DNA of 63,649 nucleotides, the filler included, from Sphacelaria rigidula (lineage: Eukaryota): NCBI GenBank assembly GCA_964200075.2. It is 8 parts of 8 records of this genome, joined end to end, with 100 filler letters (N's around TTAATTAATTAA, not from the genome) between each part and the next. Parts side by side here need not be neighbours in the genome. Positions count along the whole stretch, not along the records: positions 55,783 to 63,649 come from CAXNAA020013166.1; 7 more parts are not named here. One strand, 5' to 3'. A program made the translations under genes and the position numbers. The notes beneath the pieces are model-generated. The model saw nothing but the letters and a program-made list of their open reading frames with translations, made no database searches and was not told the origin of the DNA. Shown here piece by piece: positions 5,063 to 63,649 of the stretch. Each line of letters starts with the position of its first letter. Position 1 is the stretch's first letter.

Positions 5063-5739
5063 GTGAGGTGTAATATGGAACAAACGAAACGAGCAGAAAC
5101 AGCAAAGAGCAAGATCTGCAATTTTTATTTATTTTGAATATTAAAACCACTTGGATCCACGAAAACGTCATAGTACATACATGCGTACACAGAGAGGAAG
5201 AAACAAGGTAGGAAGTGAGAGCAGGCATCATAACTACTTTTACTGTAGTTGTTGTGTCTTTTCGAGTGTTCTCCACCCTCAGCTCTTGGAGCGCAAGTAT
5301 TTGTATATCTTCCGGAGTTGACAGTGTGTAGGTGATAGCTCACTGACTGCAATGACGTCGTCCTTTTTTGTTTGGATGGTCCCACTTCAAGGTCGGCGAG
5401 TGCCACACAGCGAAATGAAGACAGCCTTACAGCCGATTTATCTGGAGGGGGGCGCCCCGGTTTGACACATGAAGTTTCAATCAGGAAAAGCTAATAGAGA
5501 TGATCTGTAGTGCTGTGAGATGAGCGAATATATACATTCATATATCGTTTATATATACGTATGGTAAGAGGCATTTTGTTCTCAATGGCGATACCATATC
5601 TTCTGTAGAACGAAATGGTGACATACATACCGTCATCAGCGCCAGAGTTGACCTGAAATCCACAAAACGAGTCACGGGTTTGAAATCGTATCCTGGGCTT
5701 CTGCTGCCATCCCCCCCCTCCCCCCCCTTCCCCCTTTTC

Positions 5740-6044
5740 ATGGTGAGATACCCGTGAAGCAGTGTGTAATCCGTCGCTGTCTCTGGAAGTGGCAATGCCA
5801 GAAAATGAAGCAACTTATTGGAGGCTGCCATTCATGTGCAGGAGAATCAGTACGCTTAGGACCGAAATTTTTTAGCAGAGTGCAGCCCACTCTTCATGCG
5901 ACCCGCCCAACACATCACGGCGCTTCGCGCTTGGTGATTGATTGCAAGCCTGGTCCAGGGAAACCCGGCGTGCTCCGTCCCTGCTTTGCAGGGATGCGAG
6001 GTCAATATGTCACACGACTACGGCATGCAAGGTTGTGAGTACAC
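5740..6044 (+). mobile_element. 5'-truncated non-LTR family B copy
   Basis: Homologous to 24180-24469 and 62589-62907. Preceded by C-run 5711-5734; ends gtgagtacac before a pyrimidine tract. Confidence 0.75.
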
Positions 6045-6104
6045 CTCTTTCCCCTTTCAGATAGATCGACTTCTAAAACTCTCGAGGAATTAATATCCTC
6101 CAAA

Positions 6105-7870: not shown

Positions 7871-7970
7871 NNNNNNNNNNNNNNNNNNNNNNNNNNNNNN
7901 NNNNNNNNNNNNNNTTAATTAATTAANNNNNNNNNNNNNNNNNNNNNNNNNNNNNNNNNNNNNNNNNNNN
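7871..7970. other. Artificial contig-joining linker (N44-TTAATTAATTAA-N44); also at 15841-15940, 23810-23909, 31779-31878, 39747-39846, 47715-47814, 55683-55782
   Basis: Identical 100-nt spacer seven times, with stops in all six frames. The flanking segments fall monotonically from 7870 to 7867 bp, as expected for size-sorted concatenated contigs. Confidence 0.98.
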
Positions 7971-8898: not shown

Positions 8899-8995
8899 TG
8901 TGTGCCCATGGTTCTGCACGCCGTAATCATACCAACAGTGACCCCACATCCCTACAAAGCCGGGACAGAGCACGCTGGGTTTTCCCCTGATCAGG
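8899..8995 (-). mobile_element. Short 3' fragment of non-LTR family B
   Basis: Reverse complement of the aaaacccggcgtgctccgtcccggctttgtagggatg... 3' end. G-rich flanks on both sides. Confidence 0.65.
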
Positions 8996-14116: not shown

Positions 14117-14903
14117 ACACACACCGACCCCCCCACCCACCCCAACACCACCACAAAACNNNNNNNNNNTTTTTTTTTTTTTTTCTCCCACCTTTTCCCC
14201 CTTACCCAAAAGGGGGAAATTTTTTTTTTTTTTTTTTGGGTAAAATGTTCCCCCCCCCCCCCCCCCCCCCTGACCCCGCATAAAAATAGTTGAGCCGAAG
14301 TTTCGGCAAAAACCGAGTACATGACAGTATTTGTACGTTTGCCTTACAATTATGTTTCTGTCGTCTCACACGGTGACTAAACCAGGGATATCCCCGATTT
14401 TGTTTTCGTTCTTCTTTCTTCTTATCGATATGTACCTTCATCGTTCTCACACAAAATGAAAAACCGAACGGTTGAAAGGGTACTCATTGGAAAAAGAAAA
14501 AGAAACGGGTGATCGGGACAGAGAAAGAAAAGAGCTACAAACCTCAAGTCACCAACTTCGTTGAAAAGGAATAAAAGACGCACAAGGGGACCGGTAATGA
14601 GGCAGTAGCAGCAGCAGCAGCAGCAGCAAAAACAAAATAACATGAATCTAACCCTTCCCCGAGCGGAACAGTTTTTTATTTTCGAAGTTTCCATGGTATG
14701 CTAACCCGTCGGCAACGATTTTCCTTGAAAAATACAGCCAGGCATATAATGCCACACCGGAATGATCAGTTCTGTCTTCAAGAAAGAGATTCCGGCATAC
14801 TACGGGCGATTTCAGTGCAAGAACTTTCACTTGGGGCCGAAACATGTATCTCATCGCTCAAGAAGTGGCATATCTCGCAGTCCTGGGCTCATACCCCCCC
14901 CTC

Positions 14904-15840
14904 CATCTGGGAGAAGAGGAACTGATGATCGTAGACCAGCATACATACCTTGGCATAGATATATAAAAAAACTGTTCTTGGGATGTACACATGAATAAAG
15001 TAATAGAGAAGGATAAGGCACAGATAGGCAGGATGAACGTGATTCTCAGAAACTCGCACCTAGACTCTAGGATCAAGAGATGTATCCTGATGAGCGTGAT
15101 CGTACCAAAGCTGGAATATGCAGAAGTGTAGGAGGGGAACGCGAAGTTGGTGGAGAGGTTGGAAACAGTACAGATGGCAGCAGCTAAGAAAATACTTGAA
15201 TGCTCGAAAACGACGAGTATTACAGTTTTGAGAGCAGAGTTGGAAATGTACTCCCTTGAAACAAACAGGGACATGAAGAAATTGAGATGGCAAAAGAGTG
15301 TAAGGAACACGCGGAGAAAGAGATTGCCAGCTATAGTTGATGGGGCTGTAAGGAAGAAAAGTACGATAGGGCAGGCTGGAATGAGGTGGGATAGAGAAGT
15401 CGAGAAAGTATGGAAGGAGATAGGAGGACGAAATAATACTGTCCGTAGGGGAAGGCGCGGGGTACAAGGCAAAAGTAAGGAACATGATAGAAACAAGGGG
15501 AAAAGAAGCACTCAGACGCGAAGTAGACAAGGAAAAACACCTGAAGATATACCGGAGGCTGAGAGGAGGAATAGGGGTGAGAACATATCTACATGGCCCA
15601 ATGGACGCGGCGAAAAATTGAAACTTCGATTTCGGGTGGGGGACCTGGACTTGCCACAAAGAAGAAGGAGATATACCCGTCGTCGAAAGGAGGAGGAAGT
15701 AGATGGACAGAACTGCCTCTGTGACGAAGCAATAGAAAACAGAAGCCATATAGTTGCAGAATGTGAGTTATACAAGGAGAAACGGGACGTGCTGGAGGGG
15801 GAAATGCGGGACGTGACCGAAGATGGCATGAAATCGTTTG
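14904..15840 (+). mobile_element. Degenerate 5'-truncated LINE (family A), post-RT region with C-terminal CCHC knuckle
   Basis: Collinear with ~61220-62140. Peptides YLGxDI, PKLEYAEV, LETVQMAAAKKIL and CLCDEAIENRSHIVAEC, with stops and frameshifts. Preceded by C-run 14894-14904. Confidence 0.88.
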
Positions 15841-15940: not shown

Positions 15941-15993
15941 AGGGATGCGAGGTCTATGGTCTTATGACTATGGCATGCATGATCATGAGTACA
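15941..15993 (+). mobile_element. 3' tip of non-LTR family B with poly(C)
   Basis: agggatgcgaggtctatggtcttatgactatggcatgcatgatcatgagtaca followed by (C)9. Confidence 0.75.
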
Positions 15994-16967
15994 CCCCCCC
16001 CCGTAGCATGGCTCGCGATCGGGCCGTTCGGTCGTCAAACGTTAACGAAAAGTCGGCCTTGATACTAAGACCGAGCAGTCGAACGAACACCTTCACGCCG
16101 TTGAACGTTTTTCGGAGTTCGATCCTCAATCTTCGCATATATATATATGCTATGATCCATAACGAAGCGTTCCGATGTTGGGGTCTTGAGATTTTGTTTT
16201 TAATTCGCCGGTTATCGGGGGTCCGAGAAGAGCATGTGACTCCCCAGTGCTCCGGGACCCCCCGTCTACCGGCGAAATTGAGAAGCAAATCAGCAAATGA
16301 AAGACCCTAATCGCAGAGAAAGGGCACAATGGACCATAGTGTATGTGCGCGCAGTTCCAGAGTCTGACTTCAAACAACGGCGTGAATGTTTGCGGATGAG
16401 TGAATTATGGGCGATGAGGGTGAAACAGCTATACGTAGCTAGCCTGCAACGCTGCGCGAGCCAGACGTAGTCGATTTTTTATTGGCATTCTCAATGTATT
16501 GTATCACGTCGCCACACTTCGCAACCACCCCAAGGTATAGCGGGTTCGAGCAAAATGAGGTGAATCGCGGTAGACGAAGAATCATGCTATAAAAACTGCA
16601 CCCCAGATTCGGGTATCACCTCGGGGCTGTGTAAGCACGTGAAGCATACGCACCCAGTGACTCGTAGTTCAGACGGTAATTGTCGTGTCCACGATGCTAC
16701 ACTTCATGTACACATGCACAAATCAAGGCGGATAAATGAATGCAGCAGAATGCAGGTAGATAATCGAATACAAATCGGACCAGAAGTCCTTCATGACCGA
16801 GTAGATGGACAGCACGTGGTGGTTGGTTGACAACTCTGATGATCGCACCAGGCATGGGTAACTGACTGAAACAAGATGTAACTGCTTTCAGTTCCGACAG
16901 GACTGGCGCAAAAGCGTAAAAACTCTCTTGTGCTCCCTCCCACCCTCCGTTCGCGTTCTATTTCCAG

Positions 16968-30063: not shown

Positions 30064-31616
30064 CTGCAGGATATATGTGACCCCCCCAAGAAAACACACA
30101 AACAATAATTACTTAGTGTGGTGGCGACACCGGATGAAAATGTGTACAATACCGCTTTTTTTCCGTAGTAGAGAATGAAGTCGACGACTACTATTTTTTT
30201 CATTTAGCATCCTCGGCAGCCATGTTTGTTTTTCTCATAGAGCCAGTTAATTACAGCCGTCATCATAAAGGCAAAACATGTGTAAATTAAGTTTGTAGAC
30301 CCAGCCTCTGGCAGTGAAAATTAGACTTCTCTAATACGTGCTGAGCACGCATAGTCGGAGCGCAGCCCCACCACAGCTGTTCAAACGCTGCCCACGATCA
30401 CGAGGGCCTTGGGGATGATGCCCCGCGGTCGCCGTAAGAATGCTGTGCAACAAGACGGGCTCCCAAAATCGTTGTGTGAGTGTCTTGTGGAGCTTTTGCA
30501 GTACAATATCTCGGAGGTGCCCAAATGTACCTACTTGCACGAGGACATGAAATGATGCTGAACCACACAACAAGCACGGGCTGGCGATTTTATCGCGAGG
30601 TGCTCAACTTAAAATTTGGAGTGCGAACCCCTGTAGATTGTGGGCTACTCACGCAAAAACGAAGGCACCCAACACAACGACATAAGAACCGCAGGCACCC
30701 ATGCAACAGGGTACCTAACCTTGTTAGGCGTGATTTTTTTGTTTTGTCTGGAGGGGGGGGGGGGGGGAGGGGGAAGGGGCTCGGTAATGCACGCACGTAC
30801 TGAGGGGTTGTGTGACAGAATGGCCCACGTACCAGCCAAGAAAAGTCATCCAAAACGAGAACAAAAGTCGAAAAAAGTTTTAGGGTTATCAACAGAGGGT
30901 AAATTTGCGTCAAATGCACAGGACAGGTCCATGATATTCGATTCCTGGCCGTTGTAACGACCGACAGATATCCGCTGGAAAAAAAAAAGGTCGTGCAAAG
31001 CTTTTTTTTTGTGTGAAAAAAAAAACACTTTTATGTGCAAGCCCCGTCCGTGCATACAGAACAAGCTGCCGTGATCACACCTCACAGTTCAATCCTCACA
31101 TCGCCCATTTCTTTTCTCGAGAAGGAGGAGGTAGATTGAAGTCTACGACGTGCTCTACTTCGCTTGACAACTGGACACCCTGGAAAAGTGGCCATTCCTC
31201 TGTTCTACTTACAAGAGCTCAAAACACACAGACATGCACCAACGGTACACAGTACAGTACCATGCCGTACAAGTACTGTACAGCACAATATTTTGTTGCT
31301 CGATTGTGCAGAGGGCAACATCACTCCGTAGACTTGAGAAAAAAGAGTCACAACAAAAAACATCTTAACACGGTTAATCCCTCCCTCTGTCTGGCTGGCT
31401 CTCTCTGCTCGTCTCCTTCTCTGATTGTCTACCTGTCTGCCTGTCCGTCCTTCTCTTGATACACGTGCGGTTATTTGATCAATGACTATCACAACGTGTT
31501 CAGCTCAGTTTTTGTTGCGGTGGAGGTCGAGGGTATGTCATACACATACACCATATCCAGACGTCCATTGCTTCTTTTTTTCAAGGCAATGGCACGCATA
31601 AAGGGGGGGGAGGGGG

Positions 31617-31678
31617 CGTACTCATTCGTTGCCTGCCTTAGTCGTTTGACCATTGACCACGCATCCTTTTCGACGGAG
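31617..31678 (-). mobile_element. ~60-bp 3' tip of LINE family A embedded in a G-run
   Basis: Reverse complement of ctccgtcgaaaaggatgcgtggtcaatggtcaaacgactaaggcaggcaacgaatgagtacg. G-runs on both sides. Confidence 0.8.
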
Positions 31679-31878
31679 GGAGGGTGGGGGGGGGGGGGGG
31701 GGGGGCGGTCCTGTTGCGCCCCCCGGCCCTTTCCCCCTCCCCCCCCCCCCCGCCCGCGCCCCCGACCCCACCTCCAAGNNNNNNNNNNNNNNNNNNNNNN
31801 NNNNNNNNNNNNNNNNNNNNNNTTAATTAATTAANNNNNNNNNNNNNNNNNNNNNNNNNNNNNNNNNNNNNNNNNNNN

Positions 31879-33020
31879 GTTAGCTTCTCTATTCCATGTC
31901 TATGTCCGGGCTGTGTTATGGTAGGTTAAATAAAAAGGAGGGTTAGCTTCTCTATTTCATGTGTATGTCCGGGCTGTGTTATGGTAGGGTAAACAAAAAG
32001 TAGGGTTAGCTTCTCTATTTCATGTCCATGTACTGGCTGTGTTATGGTAGGTAAAATAAGAAGGAGATTTAGCTTCTCTATTTCATGTGTATGTCCGGGC
32101 TGTGTTATGGTGGGTTAAATAAAAAGGAGGGTTAGCTTCTCTATTTCATGTGTTTGTCCGGGCTGTGTTATGGTAGGGTAAATAGAAAGTTGGGTTAGCT
32201 TCTCTATTTCATTACTATGTCCGGGCTGTGTTATGGTAGAGTAAAAAGAAAGGAGGGTTAGCTTCTCTATTCCATGTCTATGTCTGGGCTGTGTTATGGT
32301 AGGGTACATAAAAGGAGGGTTAGCTTCTCTACTTCATGTGTATGTCCGGGCTGTGTTGAAGTAGGGTAAATAGAAAGGAGGGTTAGCTTCTCTATTCCAT
32401 GTCTATGTCCGGGCTGTGGTATGGTAGGGTACATAAAAGGAGGGTTAGCTTCTCTATTTCATGTCTATGTCCGGGCTGTGTTAAAGTAGGGTAAATAAAA
32501 GGAGGGTTAGCTTCTCTATTTCATGACTATGTCCGGGCTGTGTTATGGTAGGGTAAATAAAAAGGAGGGTTAGCTTCTCTATTCCATGTCCATGTCCGGG
32601 CTGTGTTATAGTAGGGTACATAAAAGGAGGGTTAGCTTCTCTATTTCATGTGTATGTCCGGGCTGTGTTATGGTAGGTAAAATAGAAAGGAGGGTTAGCT
32701 TCTCTATTTCATGACTATGTCCGGGCTGTGTTATGGTAGGGTAAATAAAAAGGAGGGTTTGCTTCTCTATTTCATGTGTATGTCCGGGCTGTTATGGTAG
32801 GGTAAATAGAAAGTAAGGTTAGCTTCTCCATTCCATGTCTACGTTCGGGCTGTGTTATGGTAGGTAAAATAAAAAGTAGGGTTAGCTTCTCTTTTTCATG
32901 TGTATGTCCGGGCTGTGTTATGGTAGGGTAAGTAAAAAATATGGTTAGCTTCTCTTTTTCATGTGTATGTCCGGGCAGTGTTAGAGTAGATGAAATGAAA
33001 AGAAGGTTAACTTTCTATTT
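31879..33020. repeat. 63-bp tandem satellite, ~18 copies, running into the contig start
   Basis: gttagcttctctatt(t/c)catgt.tatgtccgggctgtgttatggtagggtaaataaaaaggagg starts at 31879, 31942, 32005, 32068 and onward. Confidence 0.95.
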
Positions 33021-33632
33021 CGTGACAGTCTGCACATTTGTCTAGGTTTTGGGGGCTTGTTTTACAGCGCCGTTGCCACTCGACGCCAACCCAAAAGTCT
33101 AGAGGTGAGAGAGTGGAATGATGGGGGGGGGGGAGGGGGGTGAGGGTACCGTCGGTCGGGCGCGCTGTATTGGGCGGTGGTGATCCGTGTGTCTTTAGCA
33201 CTCGCCCTCATCAACACGAAAGTTAACACGTGATATATAGTATATTCGGCGTCTCGACCTCAAGATGGGGGTGTTTCCTTCCCCCGTGGGTCAGCGTCGT
33301 TGACTTCGGACGGTATCTTGTGCGAGATTTACCATGCAACGAGATCCTCGCGCGATGGTAGGTCGCATATCTTGGTCGGGATCGTTCCCATTCGGAGCCT
33401 CCTACATGTATGACGTGCGCAGCATATGTGTGACGATGCGAGGTCTTGCAAAATCCATTTGAGGCTTCTCTGTCCTATTGTGGTGGTAATTGTTGCGTGT
33501 TGAAAAAATAATCGCGTGGTGATTAGGCTCTCCTCGGAGAGCATCAATGGCTCCTCAGATTGCATTCTTTCCCCTCATATTGTTGCCACTCTGCACAACT
33601 TTCGTTGTGAAAACTTCGATGTCGCACGGCCT

Positions 33633-36739: not shown

Positions 36740-37227
36740 GGATCCTAAGTTTCGGGGTTGAAGTAAAAAATGAGGTTCAAGCCGCAAATCGTTGACGTTG
36801 GGCAAACACCAAACAGTAACACAGAAGGAAACTCTTTCCGCCAAAAACTCCGCACGAGGAGTTGGGCAGTTGGGGCCAGGTGCACCGAACGAATGCGGTG
36901 TACACACGTGTCTACGACGATATCACCAGAGAGAGAAGCAGCGACAGAGAGGAACCTCCTCGCCCGTGTCCTTTGTGTGTCCTCGCTTGGCGATTACCAA
37001 TCGCTCGAGAGACTGGCACCATCGATGTTGTCAACTCTGGGTTTCCTTCGTCATCGACACGCGTGTACACCCCATTCGTTGGGTGCACCTCGCCCGAACT
37101 GCGCAACTCCTCCTGCAGAGGTTTGGGCGGAAATACTTTCCTTCTGTGTCACTGTTTGGTATATTCCCAACGTAAACGATTTGCCGGTTGAACCTCATTT
37201 TTTTCTTAGCCCGAACATTTAGGATCC
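36740..37227. mobile_element. Foldback/MITE with ~170-bp imperfect inverted arms
   Basis: 36740-36911 (ggatcctaag...gtgtacacacgtgtc) is the reverse complement of 37056-37227 (gacacgcgtgtacac...ttaggatcc). Confidence 0.8.
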
Positions 37228-40049: not shown

Positions 40050-40306
40050 GGACTTCTTGAACAAAACGAAAATTCGCCAGGAAGTTCGTTTTTTTCATTT
40101 GTTTTTTTGGTGCGACAACAAGAAAAATAAACGAAGTGTGATATACCACCTCTGCGTTTTTTTCTTCTTCTTTCCCTCCTGCTTCTCTTGATGAGGAAAT
40201 ATCTTCGCTTTGGACTCGATTTTCACCACCATTTCGAAAAAGAAACCATCGTGCATGCTTTCATTGTAGTAAGGGTGTGTAAAATATCTCTGTACCCCCC
40301 CCCCCC

Positions 40307-40587
40307 TGGTCCGGCGAAAACCCGGCGTGCTCCGTCCCGGCTTTGTAGGGATGCGAGGTCAATGGTCTTATGACTATGGCATGCATGATCATGAGTACAC
40401 CCCCTCCCCGGCGAAACAGGACGGGGATAAGATATGTAAACGGTTTTTGTGTAATGTACGGAAGAAACGGAATGAGCGCCGGAATGTTGGAGGCGTCTGT
40501 CTCTATTAGGAGTAGGAACGGTGCTCCGTCTCGAAGGGGATGCGTGGTCAATGGTCAAACGACTAAGGCAAGCAACAAATGAGTACG
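40307..40587 (+). mobile_element. Head-to-tail family B 3' fragment (40307-40399) and family A 3' fragment (40410-40587), separated and flanked by C-runs
   Basis: (C)13 - B end atgagtaca - C-run - A end aaatgagtacg - C-run. Confidence 0.85.
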
Positions 40588-41424
40588 CCCCCCCCCTTCC
40601 CCTGGCTACCACCAACAGCCGATCGAGTAGAACGAACACATACACGTTGACATACACAAAACACAATAAGTAGCACGCATGGGATGGCAGTGGTGAGCAT
40701 ATCCTCCCCGCAAAGCCCAGCTTGCATCCGCGGCTGGTTGCTGCTGAGCCTGATGCAGACACGGCCTACAAAAACCCCGACCCGCCCTCTCAACCAAGTC
40801 ATCCTGCTGCGATGCCATTGGTCGGAAAATGAGGTACACGAAATCTGCTTTATTAGGCCTCGTCTTCGGGAGTGTCTCAGCAGATTAGTTTTCGATCGAA
40901 ATTGTGCGGCGGAAAAAAAAATCCCGATCTGATGGATAGTAATTTTAACCCCTGTCGTTACTTTCGAAGACGGTTGAAACGACGACTTATCAGATCGGGA
41001 CTTTTGCTTCCCACCGCACTTTTTCGATCGCCGAATGATGTGCTAAGGCACGGCCTTGTCGAGACAGGAAAAAATGAAAACACGGTGTGCTATTGATAAT
41101 TTTTCCGGTGGTTGATATTTTTTTCTTCTTTTTGTCCTTCTGATAGGTTGGGGGCTGATGCTCTATTCTCATCGCTCCCCAAATGTTTTTCACTAAATCA
41201 ACTCAAAAATGACTAATTTTGAGAAACGTGAAAGAGAACATGAAATGGTTGCCACGCGTGGGCTGTTCGGCTGATCATGGGCTGCACAGATGGCTTTCCC
41301 ATCAGCAGTTGCCACACGTGAACCACGCACCCTTCGTTTACTGCTCCCAAAGAGGGATGCGCACAGCTATACCTTCCAGCACTTCGCGAATGAGCAAGCA
41401 TGGACCCATCGGCGGTTAGTACGA

Positions 41425-41512
41425 ACCAGCGATTCCCAGCGGGGCGGCAGTCACACGCAAGGTGCATCGGTATTGTCGCACGGTCGAAACGCGGACAGTC
41501 TTTCGCACGAGG

Positions 41513-41549
<37 letters not shown>

Positions 41550-41802
41550 TGGGCAAGGTTGATTCAGCTCCACCCCCAACCGTGCTCCGTCTCGAAAGGG
41601 ATGCGTGGCCAATGGCAAAACGATTAAGACAAGCATCAAATGAGTACGCTCAACCGTATGCAACTAACTGGTGGCGGTAAAGCTGCTGCCGCTGCTGCCG
41701 CTGCTGCTTCTCCTCCCCGTGCGAAATACGGTCCGCGTTTCGACCTTGGGACAATGCCGATGCAACTTACGCGTGACTGCCGCCCTGCTGGGAATTCCTG
41801 GT
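41425..41802. mobile_element. Foldback element with ~120-bp arms ending in (CAG)n/(CTG)n, with a family A 3' tip (41581-41648) in the loop
   Basis: 41425-41547 is the reverse complement of 41682-41802; for example attcccagcggggcggcagtcac pairs with gtgactgccgccctgctgggaat. Confidence 0.75.
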
Positions 41803-53174: not shown

Positions 53175-54289
53175 CTGACAGCCGATCATCAAAGTTGAGG
53201 ACGGAGCTTTTCATTGGGGATGAGGAAGCCCCGGAGCGGCGCGCGGAAAGTGCCCATATATATTCCCCCCCGAAAATACTTCGGTAGTTACGGAGTGTAC
53301 CGTAACGATTTGGAAGCGGCCTCGACGAAGTTGATAGTGCATCGGGGGGCTGTGGCGACGGTTTGACATGACAGCGGTCCCTACCAAGTTGGTAGCGCAC
53401 CGGTGGTGTACTTTGTATATATACAGTACTACTCTACTCGTCGAGACAGGTTCGGGACACCCTTGCATTTTCTGGCGGCCGCACTTGTTTTCGGCTAAAC
53501 TTGCATTTTTGTCCAAAAGCGGCCGAGAACGGTCGAGCCTAGAAAAAATGGCAGTTTATTCTAGGCTTGACCGTTCTTGGATAAAAGTGCAAGTTTGGCC
53601 AATCAAAAACTGTGGCAACCGAGAAACGCAAAGGTGTCCCGAAACCGTCTCAATGAGTATGTATCGTGTTTATTTTGATCCGACGGACCGCCCGAAACTA
53701 AAAGGCCGGCGTGACCCCTCTTCACCATTTTTCATAAATCCGACTCGCCGCTGATCACGTCTGTTCTTATTATTTCGTATTAAAGTCGGCTGTTGAAAAA
53801 ACGCTGTTGCACTTGTATGGAGTCAAAACTGAACTCCAAGTTTGAAGAGGCGGTGTTGTTTGCTTGAAATTCAAAGCCAGGTCCTGACCTGCACTTGTAT
53901 AAAAAACAGTCCCGACCACCAGGTATGGGTGACACAACCATTTGAGCGATCTGTTTGGACCCGAAAAATTCGAATCTCACTCTACTGCTCCTTTCATGCT
54001 AACCCTTTGGGTGCCCGACTCTCAGAATTATAATGTGGTTTGCACGCTGGGGCCTTTTTGTGAATCGACGTCATTTTTACTTGAAAACGACTGAAAATGA
54101 TGACGGTGAATGAAAACGCCCCTGCGTGCAAAGCTCATGTTTCTGGGAGTCCGGTCCCACAGGGGTTGCAAAGGTATTTTCGGGGAAAAAAAAATATATA
54201 TATATGTATGGGCACTTTCCGCGCGCCGTTCCGGGACTTCCTTATCCTCAATGAAAGCTAAATCCTCAATTTTGACGGTCGGCTGTCAG
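53175..54289. mobile_element. ~1.1-kb non-autonomous DNA transposon with ~105-bp TIRs
   Basis: ctgacagccga...ggcgcgcggaaagtgcccata...ccccgaaaatac is mirrored by gtattttcgggg...tatgggcactttccgcgcgcc...tcggctgtcag. TA on the right flank. Confidence 0.78.
53437..53657. mobile_element. 221-bp Tc1/mariner-type (Stowaway-like) MITE nested in the previous element
   Basis: TA|CTCGTCGAGACAGGTTCGGGACACCCTTGC ... GCAAAGGTGTCCCGAAACCGTCTCAATGAG|TA; arms ~80 bp. Confidence 0.75.
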
Positions 54290-55833: not shown

Positions 55834-55873
<40 letters not shown>

Positions 55874-55874
55874 A

Positions 55875-56010
55875 TCATGATCATGCATGCCGTAGTCAGA
55901 AGATCATCGACCTCGCATATCTACGAAGCCGGGACGGAGCACGCCGGGTTTTCGCCAGACCAGGCTCGCAGTCACCAAGCTCAAAGCGCCGTGATATCTT
56001 CGGCGAATCG
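55875..56010 (-). mobile_element. Family B 3' fragment abutting a long G-run
   Basis: Reverse complement of the family B end; G-run at 55836-55872. Confidence 0.7.
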
Positions 56011-58499
56011 CATGAAGGGTGATCTGCATACTGCTAAGATTCTTCGGTCCGAAGCGTACAAATTATCTTGCAGGAGAAGGGGGGGGAGGGGCTACTCCCA
56101 ACCAAAAACGAACTTTAAAATGTGGACAAATAAGCAAGCAGTGCTGACACACGGTTCACTCCCGTACTTGCTTCGTGAAGGGTTTCTTGAGAGTGGACGA
56201 TTATGCTATTCATTCTGCCGTGCTTGGCACCGCCCCTCCCTCCTCCCTCCACCTCTGAGGTGTAGGGGTGATAACCTCGTGGTCACCCAAGGTTGAGCCA
56301 CAGGGATGAGGCTGTCGGTTCACTCGTTCGTGTGCGTCATCCTCCAGTGTTTGTGTGGGAAGACCACTCGAGCACGGAGGATATGAGAAGGGGATGGGTA
56401 GACCGCAGGTCTGCCGCATTGTTCGAGGATAACAATACACCGGTGACGGCAATGGATGATGACGCGAGGTGACGAAACATTTCGTTGCACGAGAACAGTG
56501 AAGGAAAACGTGTGGGGCGACGATTTCTTGCCGCATGCATGTACGTGTTCAGTATTGAGGACTGCCAGCTACTACCCTGGTACTCACAGGCTTCGCTCTA
56601 TATGTTTGCCTCCAACAACAAAGCATTGATTTGTTTGATGGTCGCACTTAAACTGATTCCTCAGGAGAAATTATGCACCCTTGGGCATTATCCACACGAT
56701 AAAAGTACCCGGCACAAAACAAATCTGAAACACTCGCTGAAGAGAAGCGAAAAAAAAAAAAGGGAGAGCAGATAAACAGAGCAGACCCAGAACAGCACCC
56801 CCCACCCCCCCCCCCCCCACCCGGCCCNNNNNNNNNNTCCATCGGATAAACCCACAACGAAAAAACAAATCTTTAAAAATGAGACCAGTAAAGACAAAAA
56901 AAAAAAAAAAAAGGTAGAGCAGATAAACAGAGCAGACTAAGAACAGAAGGAGCAACACCACGCTTCCCCACGTGGTCCGCCACCGCAGTACTAGCCTGTC
57001 CAGACAGCGACCCCCCCCCCCCCCCCCCCCCCCCCACCTCGCCCCCCCGCAGGTGGACTGAGATGGACTACGCCACATTTGGGGTTTAGAACAGCTATTT
57101 TCTCGCTACACAAAACGCCTTTTTTTATGATCATGTGGATGTTGGGCATCTGTACGGAAAGACTCCCGAGAACCCCCGACCGGTTTTGATTCTGCAGTCT
57201 ATTGCGTGCAGTCGGTATGCGTGCCGTGTGCTGTATGTCTTCGCTGGACACAGCGGCAAAAAACAGTCAGCGCGCCATCGCTCTCCGCCGAACACAATCT
57301 ACTGCACACAGCTGATGTCTGTGCTTAGTATTCCACAACAACACCACAGTGCCGAGCTAGCTGGCAGCACATGAGGGGCCAGGCAGGCGGCGCAGATCAC
57401 GAGCAGAGAAAAAAGCACGGTATTTGTGCCCATGGACTTACTCTATGGTTGTTTTGTCGTCAACAAAATGACAAGTATGGCTAGACAGCGAAGTAACCCA
57501 TCCGAAGTTCACCTGTACTCATGATCATGCTTGCCATAGTCATCAGACCATTTCACCTGTAGGGGAACGAAGTGACCATTATGACGGCCGTGATTGGTCA
57601 GAACGGTCACTTCGCTCTTCCAAGATCTCGTTCCCGGCTTACAAATTTCCGTGGGAATCTTCCAAACACACATGGTCAACCCTTTGACCGCGAGGGTAGG
57701 TCTCCTGCTGAATCAGCATCAACATTCACTCCAAAAAAGTATGCCTGGTCCAGATGAACTACCCGCACCGCGGTCCAAGGGTTGACTTGGTGAGCGTTTC
57801 GACCGTTCTGCGAACAGGCCTTACCCCCCTGTCAAAAACCACGCCCCCGCCCCCTGGAAACACCCTGATGTCCCTGGACTGTCAGCCTGTGAAATTGTTT
57901 CGGGGCGACACTCGCTGTCCGAGGGTGTTCGTCACAGAGCGGACGGGATATGGTGCTATCGACGCAGTATGGTCCTCAGCGGCTGTCAACAATACAACAT
58001 TGAAAAACACGTACACACAGAGATAAACGCACTCACCTCATCATCGGCACCTCCCTGTGAAACAGCGGCGGAGTACTTCCACAATGCTCCGTGCTTCCCC
58101 TCGTGGTCGGAGATCAAGTCGGACACGTCGATCTCATTTCCTACCCTCAGAGTAATGTCATTGTAAAATCGTGGATGCGTCTGTTCTTGTCGTGGGGGTG
58201 CAGGTAGAACAAAGGAAGGGGTACACCGGCGGAGAGAAACGGGACGGAACTGTAAAAAAATAAACGTTTGTCTGAATCAGGGTTTATTCCAGCTACAGTC
58301 GATTTTGCGGTCACCACCACATGGAAGGAAACACACACACACACACACACACACACAAGGTCCATCGAGGACTCATCGGCTCTTCATATGCTACTCCTTC
58401 AATCCCACGAGCGCTAATATTATTACAAGCATTACTATCTTCATGTAACAATAAAAATGATGAATCCATTTCGCGGAAACGTCTCCCTGCAGATGCCAT

Positions 58500-59400
58500 A
58501 ATTCAAATTTTTTGACTCGGCATCATGTTTAGATCGTTCCCCACTGAATTTTTAACGAATTTGTGCAACGTCACGCACAACTTGACTCAACTGATGAGCA
58601 GCTACGGCTTCTTTCTTCCAACTATGACATGCACCACTAGGCAACGCACACAACTACAGCATCACCGGTTCGCGCGCGTCTCACACAAACCATCGTTCCC
58701 CATTGAACTCTGAACAGATCTGCGCAAGTTCACCCACAACGTGCTCAACTGATGAGCAGCTACCGCCCGAGGTGTGTGTTTTTAATTTGCCGGGACAATG
58801 AATTAGTTCCCCGGGATCACCCTCTGACCGTGTTGGGTTGTGCGACAAGCCTTTGCACGTGCGCCCGTCAACGGAATATCTATGTTCTTCATTGGCTCAA
58901 AACGAAGTAAACATAATTATTTTTGGAATCGGCATCATCTTCACTTCAAAATGGAGTCGATATCATGTTCAGTTGAGAACCGGAAATCCTGTCAACAGTC
59001 AGCGTGGCACCTTCCTCCACTCAACTCTCGGGGTAGAGCCGGCACAACTCGAGTGTATTTTTTATCTTGCACATGCGTCACACCGTCTCAGCTGTATCTC
59101 CCTGTATTACTGGCTCTGTACTGCTGTTGCAGCTGCTGCTGGTACCCTGCCGTGCATACGTTTTTTTTCATCATGAGTCGCCGTCGTTTCAAATTTGAAT
59201 CGCCACCATTCATTTGCCGGATCGTTCCTCATTGAATTCGGAACAGATTTGTGCAAGGTCAGCACAACGTGCTCAGCTGATGAGCAGCTACGGCGTTTTC
59301 TCCAAACTATGGCATGTGCCGTTACGCAACGCATTCAACTACAACATCAGAGGTTCTCATGGTTCTTGGAGTCCGATTCACAGAGCGCGGAAGCGTAAAT
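58500..59400 (+). repeat. Dispersed repeat family (gatcgtt.c.cattgaattc.gaacagattt..gcaaggtca.gcacaacgtgctcagctgatgagcagctac), 3 copies here; reverse copies at ~48890-48990 and ~49790-50030
   Basis: Motif seen at ~58530, ~58690 and ~59220, and inverted in contig 7. Confidence 0.7.
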
Positions 59401-59414
59401 GTGTGCTGTAATCC

Positions 59415-59758
59415 CATCTATTCTGAACGCCTGCCTACACCTTTCGGTACGCGTGGGCGCATCAGCCGGATTCACACAGGAGTAAGCCCAACACAGGAAT
59501 CATGTATTTGTTGTGTTTAGTACTCCACCGTCCTTTTGCGGCGCTTGCCTTCTTTTTTTATCGCGAGAGAGGGGTTCACCAATCCCTTCCCCTCATCGAT
59601 CGTAAAGTCGAATTTTGGGTATCCACGACACGGTCGCTCTCCACCGTTGGGCATGATGTGAAGAAAAAAAATCCCCGATCGTGTGACTACACCGAGATTC
59701 GAACCCACGACCTAACCGTCGGTAGAGGACTCGAAGCTACCAACTGAGTCACGGGGGC
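59415..59758 (-). mobile_element. tRNA-derived SINE
   Basis: Minus-strand head GCCCCCGTGACTCAGTTGGTAGC (A box) ... GGTTCGAATCT (B box). The 3' part (gatgcgcccac...ccgaaagg...cagaata.atggga) recurs at 47815-47870. Confidence 0.7.
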
Positions 59759-60101
59759 GACTAGCGTCATCTCCTTCTCCCATGCTCTAACAAATCCGCA
59801 TTCCGCCTATACTTGATTTTAGGGTTTTATCAATTATATGTCATCCAACATTCTCGTCAGATGACTTTCCTACAGACACGCGTTATTTTCCTGCCAACGC
59901 CTGAGAAGCCCACCACTTCGGCTTTACTTGATGTTAAAGTACGTATCTCTCTACCGGTTCGTTTGTACACTTTTTTTTTCATCGGCATCATTTCCGAGTA
60001 AACCTTCGCTGATTTTCTCCTCCTGTGCATTTCACTGGACATGTACACCTAATTACTGTCATGGACCAACCAATCACGGAACCACACCACCCCCTCCCCC
60101 C

Positions 60102-62371
60102 TGTAGTCGGGATAAATAAGATAATGGGCCAATAGGCACGAGAGACAGACAGGGGGATAGCTACCCTAAGAGCAGAGAGCGGTAAAATGACCAGTAGCTC
60201 GAGAGCGAAAATAGAAGTACTAGCAGAGCACGACAGAAAACTGGGGACGCCAACAACGAACGAGAGGTTGGACACGGAATTCGAGAAAGAAATCAACGCG
60301 TGGGCAGAGATAAAAATGTAGAAGCATCCGAACGGGAACATATTAATGGCCCAACAGAATTGCAGAGAGTTACCAAAGAGGAGGTAAAGGAGTGTGTAGG
60401 TAAACTCAAGAATAGAAAAGGCATCAGGGGCAGATGAACGAACTTCTACAGTATCGGGGAAAGGGAATGACTACCATGACGGTTATGATGTAAAATTGGA
60501 TATGGGGAAACGAGTACACGCCCACGAGGTGGGGAGAAGGAGTGGTATTAAATATTTTCAAAAAAGGAGACAAGGCTGGCCCAGGGAATTACAGAGGGAT
60601 AACCCTTCTGAGCAACGTAGGAAAGACATCATGTTAAGTTCTGAACGATAGAGTGGGAACGATGCTAGAGAAGGAAGAAAAATCAGCGAGGGGCAAGTAG
60701 CTTTTATACCAAACCGTAGCTGCGTAGACCATGTGTACACATCAGGTGAGATTTTTCAAGGTAGGAAAGACGCCGGGCCGACACAGTATGGAGAAATGGG
60801 CTGAGGGGAAAGATGTGGGAAACTGGCATTAGATAAAAGTTCTGGAGAATGGTGAAGACGATGACAGAATGCGCCAAAGGTGCTATGATGCTAGACGGGG
60901 TAAAATCGAAATATTTTCATACTTTTACAAGGAGTTGCACAAGAATGTACATTATCACCCACTTTATTCGAGGTATTCATTAATGATCCGACAATAGCAA
61001 TAGAAGCAGCAAAGCAAGGGGTTCAGATGGGGGAAGATACGGTAGCGGGATTAATGTTCGCGGATGATTTCGCGGGGATATCACAAACACCGGGAGGATT
61101 GCAGAAGCAAATAGAGAAGGCGCTAGAATACACCACGAAATAGAGAGTGACAGCGAACGTGAACAAGTGCGCTGTACTTGTATGTAAGGAAGATAAGAAC
61201 AACCCGGTGGAGTTCAACTGGAAGTGGGGAGAAGTGGAACCGCCGGTCATATACCAGTATACATACCTTGGTGTAGAGATCTCAAGCACATGTTCTTGGG
61301 AAGTACACATAAATAAAGAAGAAGAAAGCGGAAAGACACAGATAGGTAAGATGGGCGTGATTCTACGAGATTCGCACCTAGATACTAGGATTAATATATG
61401 TTCTTGATGAATGTGATTGTACCGAAGCTGGAATATGCAGGAGAAGTATGAGAGGGGAACGTGAAGTTGGTGAAGAAGCTGGAAACAGTACAGATGACAG
61501 CAGCTAAAAAAATACTTGGATGTTCGAAAGCGACAAGTAAATACAGCATCGAGAGCAGAGTTGGGGCTGTACACACCTGAAACAAACGGAGACATGAGAA
61601 AATTTAAATAGCAACATAGCGTGAAGAGCATGAAGAGAAAAACATTGCCAGCCATAGCTGACAGGGTTGTATGGAAGACAGTGACGAAAGAGCAGGTTGA
61701 AATAAGGTGGGATAGGGTAGTCGAGAAAGTATGGAAGAAGATACGAGGAAACCACGTCGACATAATGTTCATAGGTGAAGGCGGGGGGGTACACAAAAGT
61801 GATAGATATGATAGAAATAAGGGGAAAATAAGCCCCAAGACAGATAGTAGAGGAGGAACACCTGAAGATATACGGCGGGTTGAGAGAGGGGAGAGGGATG
61901 AAAACAGATCTACATGGCCCAATTGACTCCGCGACGAAAACTAAAGCTGCGATGTCGGGTGGGGGACCTGGACCCGCCAGAAAGAAAAAAGAGTTGTACC
62001 AGTAGTCGAATGGAGGAGAAAGGCAGAGCAATAATGAGTAGAGCTCATACAGTGGCAGAATGTGAAGTATACAAGGAGGAACGGGGCGCGCTAGAGGGGG
62101 AAATGCGGGACGTGAACAAAGGTGGCATGAAATCGTTTGATGCATCAAACGGTAGGGAGAAAACGAATGCCATACTAGGAGATAGATGGTGGCCACAGAC
62201 GGCGAAACAGGACGGGGATAAGACAAGTGAGGTTTCTGTGTAATGTACGAGAGAAGCGTAATGAGCGCCTGTATGTTGGAAGTGTCTCCATCAGTAGTAG
62301 GATCGGTGCTTCGCCTCGAAAGGCATGCGTGGCCAATGGTCGAACGACCCAGGCAAGCAACAATGAGTATG
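60102..62371 (+). mobile_element. 5'-truncated degenerate LINE (family A): RT domain through the 3' end
   Basis: RT motifs LKNRKxxGAD, GNYRGITL, QxAFIPNRSCVDH, QGVAQECTLSPTLF, GLMFADDF (~61047-61070) and YTYLGVEI, with many stops and frameshifts. Ends caatgagtatg + (C)10; C-rich 5' flank. Confidence 0.93.
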
Positions 62372-62388
62372 CCCCCCCCCCTTCCCCC

Positions 62389-62907
62389 TATGGGGTTGGC
62401 GTCGGTTGGCAATGACGCTGTAAAACACACCACTCACTGCGCAAGCTAGGCAACCACGTAACCGACTTGCTTCGCGCACTTGCGTCTTTTTTGCGGAAAC
62501 CATAATGGTGGTCGAGCTAGATCATTTTGTGCGAGCTGGGAAACCTCAATTCCGCGCAAAGGGGATGATCATTCTACGTAGTGTTCAAATGGTGAGACAC
62601 CCATGAGGCAACGCGAAGCTCGTGGCTGTCTCTGAAAGTAGGGATGCCAGATAATGAAGCAACTCATTGGAGGCTTTCATGCATATGCAAGACAGTTAGT
62701 ACGGCAAGGTAATCAGTACGCTTCGGGCCGAACGATCTTGAAAGAACACAGCTCACCCTTCACACGACTCGCCGAACACATCACGGCGCTTCGCGCTCGG
62801 GGATTGATTGCGAGCCTGGTCCGGCGAGCCCAGCGTACTCCGTCCCGGCTTTGTAGGGATGCGAGGTCAGCGGTAATATGACTACGGCATGCAAAATCAT
62901 GAGTACA
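62389..62907 (+). mobile_element. Non-LTR family B copy directly after the LINE's C-run
   Basis: Collinear with 23980-24469; ends atcatgagtaca + C-run. Confidence 0.82.
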
Positions 62908-62918
62908 CCCCCCACCCC

Positions 62919-62989
62919 AACGGTGCTCCGTCTCGAGAGGGATGCGTGGTCAACGATCAAACAACTAAGGCCAGCAACAAATGAGTACG
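62919..62989 (+). mobile_element. Family A 3' tip, third unit of the head-to-tail stack; a further tip lies at 1-31
   Basis: aacggtgctccgtctcgagagggatgcgtggtc...caacaaatgagtacg followed by a long poly(C). Confidence 0.8.
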
Positions 62990-63020
<31 letters not shown>

Positions 63021-63649
63021 CCCCCCCCGCCCAGACCACCACCACCCCCCCCCGACCCGCANNNNNNNNNNCCCCCCCCCCGGGGGCGCGTGTCCACCAA
63101 CCCAACAAATCACCCCCCCACCAAATAAGTCCCCCCCCCCCCCCCCCCCTCCCCCTCCCGTCCCCCCGCGCGTGAAAAAAAACCCGCCCAACATGGAAGA
63201 TACACAAACTCATTGAACCGATACGATAACTCAAACCGATCCGACATAACAGACCCACCGGTAAAACGTCTTTTGTGGCAGGGTCTTCGGCCACGAGGTT
63301 CTGCATCCCGGTGTGAAAGAAGGGGATTATACGCGGGGTCCTCGGCGCGTGAGCGACGATTTTCCCCACGCCCCACTTTAAGCGCCCAAGCGAGTGCGAG
63401 CCGGGAGGCGGTCTACCCCCAATCGATCCGGTCTATGCGTCATTGTCGCGTACCACCGCAACGGTTGGTATATTGGTGCATGCATCGTCGAGTTTGTTTG
63501 GGCACCGCCGACGACATGACGTACAACGACGAGGCAGCAGCGTGAGGCAGGGGAGGGGGGGGGGGGCGGGGGTACATACAGTTGTTCGGGGGGTCAAAAT
63601 GATCACGCTCAGAGGTGCGACACGTTAGTCGACATGCTCGTCATCAGCA

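What the first reader, a model, noticed from the sequence alone, without database searches (positions are those of the whole stretch)
60084..63020. Candidate poly(C)/poly(G)-targeted LINE with no poly(A) tail
Seen: family A LINE copies end in ATGAGTA(C/T)G followed directly by (C)n (1-39, 31617 minus, 40587, 62371, 62989), not poly(A). Copies truncated at very different 5' points also have a C-run just upstream: 14894-14904, 31677-31705 (G on plus), 40399-40409, 41571-41578, 60084-60101 and 62907-62918. The 41581-41648 tip lacks a 3' C-run. Known: some non-LTR clades (R1, Tx1, R4-related) target simple repeats or telomere repeats. Inference: this element inserts into (C)n/(G)n homopolymer tracts, so the 'tail' is the split target. 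I do not know of this specificity being described for this lineage.
Basis: partly seen in the sequence, partly recalled or inferred. Interest (0 to 1): 0.8.

Follow-up and report, generated by a model that had tools for sequence, protein, structure and literature searches.

The report
C-tailed LINE targeting C-rich tracts
This jumping gene really does end in a run of C instead of A and lands at C-rich stretches of DNA, but a matching family with the same habit is already listed for the model brown alga Ectocarpus, so it is a known oddity whose mechanism is still untested.

Summary
966 of 1,292 exact genomic copies of the element's last 30 nt are followed directly by CCCC. In 561 kb sampled without regard to the element, 15 of 16 3' flanks and 10 of 15 5' flanks are C-rich (background about 1%). 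The element is a single-ORF APE+RT LINE with Ectocarpus homologues. The tail is not a bluntly split tract. Copies carry target-site duplications that begin in the C tract and run about 10 nt past it (13 of 110 versus 1.0 expected). Paralogous empty sites show the tract intact before insertion. Best reading: ordinary target-primed reverse transcription with C:G priming in place of L1's A:T. The supplement of PMC12477816 already lists Ectocarpus RTEX-1/-2 with '(C)n 3'' ends and 'C-rich' TSDs, plus RTEX-N1. That match rests on features and homology, not on a direct sequence comparison. Where the extra Cs come from remains open.

The parts
60084..60101 (+). C-rich target tract 5' of the longest LINE copy
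   Evidence: the junction is bridged by contigs of runs X1, X2 and X4 (table 8)
60102..62371 (+). Family A LINE, 5'-truncated, with many stops and frameshifts; covers about aa 583-1359 of homologue P0002 (RT and C-terminal region); the ORF stop lies 5 nt before the C tail
62372..62388 (+). C tail / TSD of the long copy; its last 5 C can also be read as family B's own internal C-run
62384..62907 (+). Family B non-autonomous element (SINE-like, RTEX-N1-like), lacking its ~55-nt head, sitting in the LINE tail
62908..62918 (+). C tail of family B, used as the target by the next LINE tip
62919..62989 (+). 71-nt family A tip
62990..63028 (+). C30 tail plus C8
1..39 (+). Family A tip (1-31) and C8 tail (32-39) at a contig start
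14894..15840 (+). C tract (14894-14904) and family A internal copy (14909-15840); the 3' end is cut by a contig end
31603..31705 (-). Family A tip 31617-31678 with C-rich tail (31603-31616) and 5' C tract (31677-31705)
31879..33021 (-). 63-bp tandem array, 70-77% like the array at the 5' side of four near-full-length family A copies; probably the element's 5' repeat region
40295..40602 (+). Nest: C12, family B 3' piece (40305-40399), its C tail (40400-40409), family A 3' piece (40409-40587), C-rich tail (40588-40602)
41571..41657 (+). Family A tip (about 41585-41648) inside a palindromic repeat, with an ~9-nt TSD and no added C; empty paralogous sites exist
5736..6045 (+). Family B 3' half with a 5' C tract (5711-5735)
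8902..8995 (-). Family B 3' piece with C-rich flanks
15941..16002 (+). Family B tip and C9 tail at a contig start
23974..24476 (+). Family B near-full copy with short C tail
55836..56086 (-). Family B 3' part (55873-56072) with C36 tail and 5' C tract
57515..57552 (-). Family B 39-nt tip with a candidate 6-nt TSD and no C tail

Best explanation
Family A is an abundant, here degraded, single-ORF APE+RT LINE of a brown-algal lineage, the same kind as Ectocarpus RTEX-1/RTEX-2_Ec32. Family B is its ~560-bp non-autonomous passenger (RTEX-N1-like). They insert by ordinary target-primed reverse transcription, with C and G taking the roles that A and T play for L1. SHOWN: oriented C-rich targets, pre-existing tracts, TSDs that start in the tract and end up to ~10 nt beyond it, no poly(A), and APE and RT domains. 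INFERRED: the endonuclease nicks the G-rich strand inside a C/G-rich tract. The freed 3' end ending in Gs pairs with Cs at the RNA 3' end, which the transcript picks up by reading through the donor copy's own C tail, and this primes cDNA synthesis. The top strand is nicked within the tract or about 10 nt downstream. The 3' C-run is therefore the duplicated part of the target plus a variable number of added Cs (RNA-templated or slipped). Every new tail is a new target, which gives the nests seen at 40295-40602 and 60084-63028.
For: 3' C-run genome-wide in 966 of 1,292 tips. Oriented 5' C enrichment: 66 of 107 C-rich, 0 of 107 G-rich. TSD scores of 6 or more in 13 of 110 copies against 1.0 expected from permuted flank pairs; part beyond the C-run median 10 nt, range 5-18, in the 18 copies scoring 5 or more. 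Empty paralogous sites with the intact tract in 4 of 6 stretches fetched. APE hits in genomic copies: PF03372 E=2.8e-05 and PF14529 E=9.7e-05, both under the curated cut-off. RT PF00078 E=1.8e-06. Intact homologues P0002 and P0003 have both domains above cut-off. P0003's cluster holds Ectocarpus proteins CAB1110456.1 and CAM9932640.1. The A and B tips are 80% alike over 61 nt, against '60 bp 3' end 83%' for RTEX-N1 versus RTEX-1/2. All 3 close metagenome relatives whose 3' end is on the contig end in the same motif plus C8-C10.
Against: No direct sequence comparison with the RTEX_Ec32 consensuses was possible; those FASTA supplements cannot be read here. Only 13-18 of 110 copies show a clear TSD. 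An excess of C on the 3' side is not significant overall (10 more, 6 fewer, 2 equal; p=0.22), so an RNA-borne C tail is not shown. About a third of 5' flanks are not C-rich (41 of 107). Nick positions are inferred from old copies that are about 75-87% alike.
Confidence: 0.8

Rival explanations
1. Split-target model: the RNA has no tail, the element is inserted bluntly into a homopolymer tract, and the two C-runs are the two halves of that tract.
For: In many copies the C tract abuts the 5' junction (median distance 1 nt among the 82 of 110 with a tract, loosely defined). Some copies, such as 41578, have no added C.
Against: TSDs extend beyond the tract (13 of 110 vs 1.0 expected). At 41578 the tract stays whole on the 5' side. 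Some copies have many more C 3' than the target had. Tracts are mostly interrupted, not homopolymers.
Confidence: 0.07
2. The RNA receives a non-templated oligo(C) tail in place of poly(A), and target choice comes mainly from RNA-DNA annealing at G-rich nicks rather than from the endonuclease's sequence preference.
For: Several copies have long 3' C excess over their target (2 vs 12, 4 vs 18, 5 vs 13, 5 vs 11). The 3' UTR is only 5 nt. Oligo(C) tails exist on algal RNAs, though in green-algal mitochondria (PMC5727444 and PMC12547628; search listing and abstract starts only).
Against: The 3' excess is not significant overall (p=0.22). Tails are interrupted much like genomic tracts (29 of 84 pure), which read-through explains more simply.
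Confidence: 0.08
3. There is no targeting: C-runs arose after insertion, or the 5' C-runs are just tails of earlier copies co-transcribed in tandem, or an alignment-edge artefact in a C/G-tract-rich genome.
For: C/G runs of 8 or more are common: 148 in 561 kb against 12.9 expected. 20 of 107 5' flanks lie in another copy's tail.
Against: Without nested copies, 49 of 87 5' flanks are still C-rich against a background of 1.4%, and none of 107 is G-rich. Empty paralogous sites hold the tract.
Confidence: 0.03

Closest known systems
RTEX-1_Ec32 / RTEX-2_Ec32 of Ectocarpus sp. 7 (PMC12477816; read: section 5 part 1, term passages, and supplementary file 1 rows)
   Same: Single EN-RT ORF; '(C)n 3'' or '(C)n termini/TSD'; TSD 'C-rich'; listed lengths 5,511-5,867 bp against about 5.2 kb or more plus a variable 5' repeat region here. 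Protein homologues of this element occur in Ectocarpus.
   Different: Copies here are old (long copies about 75% alike, no intact ORF among 20 long loci), whereas the paper counts many intact RTE-X copies. The paper gives only a table note: the main text has 0 hits for 'C-rich', 'homopolymer' or 'insertion preference'. Sequence identity to the consensuses was not testable.
RTEX-N1_Ec32 (same paper)
   Same: Non-autonomous, 604-607 bp, last 60 bp 83% like the LINE, C-rich TSD, 'can be present in tandem'. Family B is about 545-565 bp, 80% alike over the last 61 nt, and nests in tails.
   Different: About 40 bp shorter as delimited here. The paper calls the 5' head unknown; here it is an 82-91% copy of an internal segment about 100 nt from the 3' end.
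Mammalian L1 (TT/AAAA target, poly(A) priming; recalled, no call)
   Same: APE nick, homopolymer RNA end pairing with the nicked target strand, TSD starting in the homopolymer, 5' truncation.
   Different: C/G instead of A/T; no ORF1 seen; the ORF ends 5 nt before the tail; a shared 3' tip with the passenger element suggests sequence-specific RNA recognition.
Kibi and Koshi (Tx1 clade; (TC)n and (TTC)n targets; PMC4494074 passages)
   Same: LINEs inserting into simple-sequence tracts, so that both flanks are target-like.
   Different: Their targets are di- or tri-nucleotide microsatellites in fishes. Here the target is a loose C-rich tract. No evidence here of Tx1 membership.

Membership tests
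APE-type non-LTR retrotransposon (LINE) | N-terminal APE endonuclease | tested here: met
   PF03372/PF14529 hits in genomic copies L062 and L073 (E 3e-05 to 4e-04, below the curated cut-off because the copies are broken) and above cut-off in homologues P0002/P0003; APE motifs visible
APE-type non-LTR retrotransposon (LINE) | Non-LTR reverse transcriptase | tested here: met
   PF00078; P0002 aligns along window 60106-62361
APE-type non-LTR retrotransposon (LINE) | 5' truncation, fixed 3' end, variable-length TSD | tested here: met
RTEX-1/2_Ec32-type family | Single EN-RT ORF, (C)n 3' end, C-rich TSD | tested here: met
   against the table rows
RTEX-1/2_Ec32-type family | Non-autonomous ~600-bp partner sharing the last ~60 bp | tested here: met
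   family B
RTEX-1/2_Ec32-type family | Sequence identity to the published consensuses | not testable with these tools
   FASTA supplements unreadable; only indirect homology through Ectocarpus proteins P0008, CAB1110456.1 and CAM9932640.1
RTE-X (RTEX) clade | RT phylogeny with Repbase RTEX references | not testable with these tools
   No labelled references available; the paper's own label rests on best blastp hits to RTEX-4_NV and RTEX-1_BF; the Atlas gave only unnamed RVT_1 clusters
RLE-type site-specific elements (R2/R4/CRE) | C-terminal restriction-like endonuclease and no APE | tested here: not met
   APE present; Pfam shows no RLE domain in P0002/P0003
Tx1-clade microsatellite-specific LINEs (Kibi/Koshi) | Target is a (TC)n or (TTC)n microsatellite | tested here: not met
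   tails are about 88% C with scattered T, G and A (1053 C of 1190 nt)
SINE (for family B) | Pol III RNA-derived head | tested here: inconclusive
   No Rfam match on B in L144/L145 at E up to 1; the head duplicates an internal segment; no tRNA-specific scan was run

The most novel reading that the evidence does not exclude
This lineage has fully swapped the A:T logic of retrotransposition for C:G. Its RNA ends in an added, non-templated oligo(C), and its APE nicks G-rich (possibly quadruplex-prone) strands. Sister lineages re-tune tail and target together: a 27%-identical relative is bounded by (TC)n and another ends in (TAA)n. The element and its passenger, roughly 14,000 copies here by extrapolation, would also seed part of the genome's C/G tracts. 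That would make it a natural G-tract-directed, poly(A)-independent insertion enzyme.
Probability: 0.12. Interest if true: 0.7.

Novelty: new member of a known kind. Interest (0 to 1): 0.3.

Why it matters
LINEs are usually thought to need poly(A) or a microsatellite tail, so a C-tailed, C-tract-targeting LINE is a real oddity. It has been noted only as a table comment for Ectocarpus in the papers my searches reached. This work adds numbers, TSD anatomy and empty-site evidence in another genome, and shows the same 3' end in three metagenome relatives. If the endonuclease's G-strand preference or an oligo(C) RNA end were shown, it would test how far priming by RNA-DNA pairing versus nicking specificity sets LINE target choice. 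As a discovery it is modest, because the behaviour is already annotated.

Tried and rejected
Orthologous empty sites: I laid four runs on 57100-62980. X1, X2 and X4 bridge the 60101/60102 junction; X1 may be the source sample. No empty allele appears among the 15 joints listed, but 885 more were not shown and repeat-derived contigs swamp the table, so this is uninformative. RNA end: no RNA holder was listed, which is no evidence either way. G-quadruplex preference: 15 of 56 5' tracts against 94 of 573 free tracts have a four-run pattern (p=0.06), so it is not established. The 5' tracts are longer (median 16 vs 11 nt, p=2e-8), but the two sets were delimited in different windows. Self-targeting beyond chance: 3 of 30 sampled copies are nested, against tails making up 25 of 615 tracts (p=0.12), so it is not shown. 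The element as the main source of genomic C/G runs: only 23 of 148 runs of 8 or more lie within 80 nt of a recognisable copy, so this is rejected as the main source. Ribozyme or known RNA in the shared tip: there is no Rfam hit. RNAalifold gave a weak hairpin on 8 tips (-5.4 kcal/mol, 2 of 11 pairs with double changes) and no consensus structure on 48 A or 57 B tips. A first, unconstrained TSD scan included false matches to neighbouring elements and was replaced by the constrained one. Rows left out: copies lacking 45 nt 5' or 55 nt 3' of flank or holding N, A copies reaching the profile start, L067/L070/L073 (interrupted), L077 (duplicate of L057) and L176 (no 3' end). A genome search with PF14529 gave 6 weak matches whose link to this family was not checked. 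Earlier scan notes: none by sequence or by the first word search; the eight listed concern other genomes and other tails. Paper searches for a mechanistic study were (0 papers); none found one. Repbase, Dfam and most subscription papers are not searchable here.

Full report
1. Observation. Every coordinate given is right. Six family A ends lie in the window; five are followed at once by C-rich runs, and 41648 is not. The window is eight contigs joined by N-spacers, so these copies are independent loci. The copy at 14909-15840 simply runs off its contig. Genome-wide, the exact last 30 nt occur 1,292 times and are followed by CCCC 966 times (75%); the reversed control has 0 matches. I drew 60 contig stretches by contig number (561,429 bp) and found 17 A and 15 B copies with a 3' end. 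For A, 15 of 16 scoreable 3' flanks and 10 of 15 5' flanks hold a 10-nt window with 8 or more C, against backgrounds of 0.8% and 1.4%. Without copies nested in another tail it is 9 of 13. For B the counts are weaker: 6 of 15 and 4 of 15. Pooled with the window and search-selected loci (133 copies), 91 of 129 3' flanks and 66 of 107 5' flanks are C-rich and 0 of 107 5' flanks are G-rich, so the target is oriented. Poly(A) is absent: 4 of 128 ends have an A6, against a background of 2.1%.

2. What it is. Family A is an APE+RT LINE. Open stretches of genomic copies hit RT and APE, in both cases under the curated cut-offs because the copies are broken. The intact homologue P0002 (1,360 aa, APE+RT above cut-off) aligns along near-full-length copies and along window 60106-62361. 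The ORF stops 5 nt before the C tail. Near-full-length copies span about 5.2 kb plus a variable array of 63-bp repeats at the 5' side; the array at window 31879-33021 is 70-77% like it. A second homologue, P0003 (72% to P0002), clusters with Ectocarpus proteins. The host is thus inferred to be a brown alga. The finding's interval is a nest: C tract, long A, tail, B, tail, A tip, C30.

3. How it inserts. A scan for duplications that end at the 5' junction and begin in the tail found scores of 6 or more in 13 of 110 copies (1.0 expected from permuted pairs) and 5 or more in 18 (3.6 expected). The duplicated part beyond the C-run is 5-18 nt, median 10. Most copies show no scorable TSD, which fits age or duplications lying wholly within the tract. 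The tip at 41578 sits in a palindromic repeat with many paralogues. Of six paralogues fetched, four are clear empty sites with the C tract followed by A(A/G)CCGTA, one aligns poorly, and one is filled at the same place. In the window copy the tract is whole on the 5' side, and about three of its bases plus AACCGT recur 3'. So the tract pre-exists and is duplicated in part, not split. Among the 18 TSD copies, the 3' run has more C than the 5' tract in 10, fewer in 6 and equal in 2 (p=0.22). Some copies clearly gained C, but a general RNA-borne tail is not shown. Tails are impure (29 of 84 pure). The inferred mechanism is L1-like target-primed reverse transcription with C:G priming. Its steps are a nick on the G strand, pairing with Cs at the RNA end (most simply from read-through of the donor's tail), and a second nick in or just past the tract. 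None of these biochemical steps was tested. A G-quadruplex preference (p=0.06) and self-targeting above chance (p=0.12) are not established. The element explains only 23 of 148 long C/G runs in the sample.

4. Relatives. Of 21 metagenome loci, four are close (51-91% best-segment identity). The three whose 3' end is on the contig all end in the same motif plus C8-C10, and one has a B-like element in its tail. Distant ones (27-32%) differ: L189 ends in (TAA)n and L191 is bounded by (TC)n at both contig ends. The C tail therefore belongs to the close lineage.

5. What is known. Supplementary file 1 of PMC12477816 (rows read) lists RTEX-1_Ec32 ('single EN-RT ORF; (C)n 3'', TSD 'C-rich', 5,867 and 5,511 bp). 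It also lists RTEX-2_Ec32 ('(C)n termini/TSD', 5,582 bp) and RTEX-N1_Ec32 (604-607 bp, last 60 bp 83% like the LINEs, C-rich TSD, 'can be present in tandem'). Section 5 part 1 calls RTEX-N1 the most abundant family. The main text has no hit for 'C-rich', 'homopolymer' or 'insertion preference'. Every feature I could test matches. I could not compare sequences because the FASTA supplements are unreadable here, and I could not test the RTE-X clade label. PMC4421812 (passages) names an RTEX-1 in Saccharina without describing its ends. PMC4494074 (passages) gives Kibi/Koshi as microsatellite-targeting precedents. bioRxiv 10.64898/2025.12.07.692804 (passages) adds nothing. The L1 comparison is from recall. 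Searches found no mechanistic study, but Repbase, Dfam and subscription papers lie outside them.

6. Verdict. The pattern is real and strong, and it is correctly read as C-tract targeting. The 'split target' wording is wrong in detail, and the habit is already annotated for the matching Ectocarpus families. It is a new member of a known kind, with interest 0.3. The open and more interesting point is the source of the Cs and the nicking preference of the endonuclease.

Noticed in passing
window 40305-40399, 8902-8995; full-length B in L144, L148, L150: Family B's ~55-nt head is an 82-91% copy of its own segment about 100 nt from the 3' end, and B pieces often start at that internal copy (3 of 15 sampled are 99 nt). 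There may be a separate ~100-nt short element from which B was built.
   Followed up: partly
window 31617-31678, 41578-41648, 62919-62989; sample L081-L140: Family A truncation lengths cluster: 7 of 17 sampled copies are 63-69 nt long, about the region shared with B and predicted to form hairpins. Detection bias toward the conserved tip was not excluded.
   Followed up: partly
window 31879-33021: 18 copies of a 63-bp unit, homologous to the array 5' of four near-full-length LINE copies; a tandem-repeat 5' region or promoter is possible.
   Followed up: partly
L184 (G000:C16351) versus window 41578-41657: A second copy of the palindromic host repeat carries a LINE tip at the same site with a different 5' junction: either an independent hit at one target or duplication of a filled host.
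   Followed up: no
L191 1-5234; L190; L189: A 27%-identical full-length relative is bounded by (TC)n at both contig ends (a possible TC-microsatellite-targeting sister lineage); another relative ends in (TAA)n.
   Followed up: no
window 41425-41802, 36740-37227, 40872-41051, 53435-53659, 53997-54170: Several palindromic, MITE-like repeats; the first has CAG-rich arms and many genomic paralogues.
   Followed up: partly
window N-spacers at 7871, 15841, 23810, 31779, 39747, 47715, 55683: The window is eight unrelated contigs of about 7.9 kb joined by N44 + 12-nt spacer + N44, so neighbourhood across these points is not genomic.
   Followed up: yes
sample L081-L140: C/G runs of 8 or more are about 11 times more common than base composition predicts (148 vs 12.9 in 561 kb), and most are not beside a recognisable copy.
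   Followed up: partly
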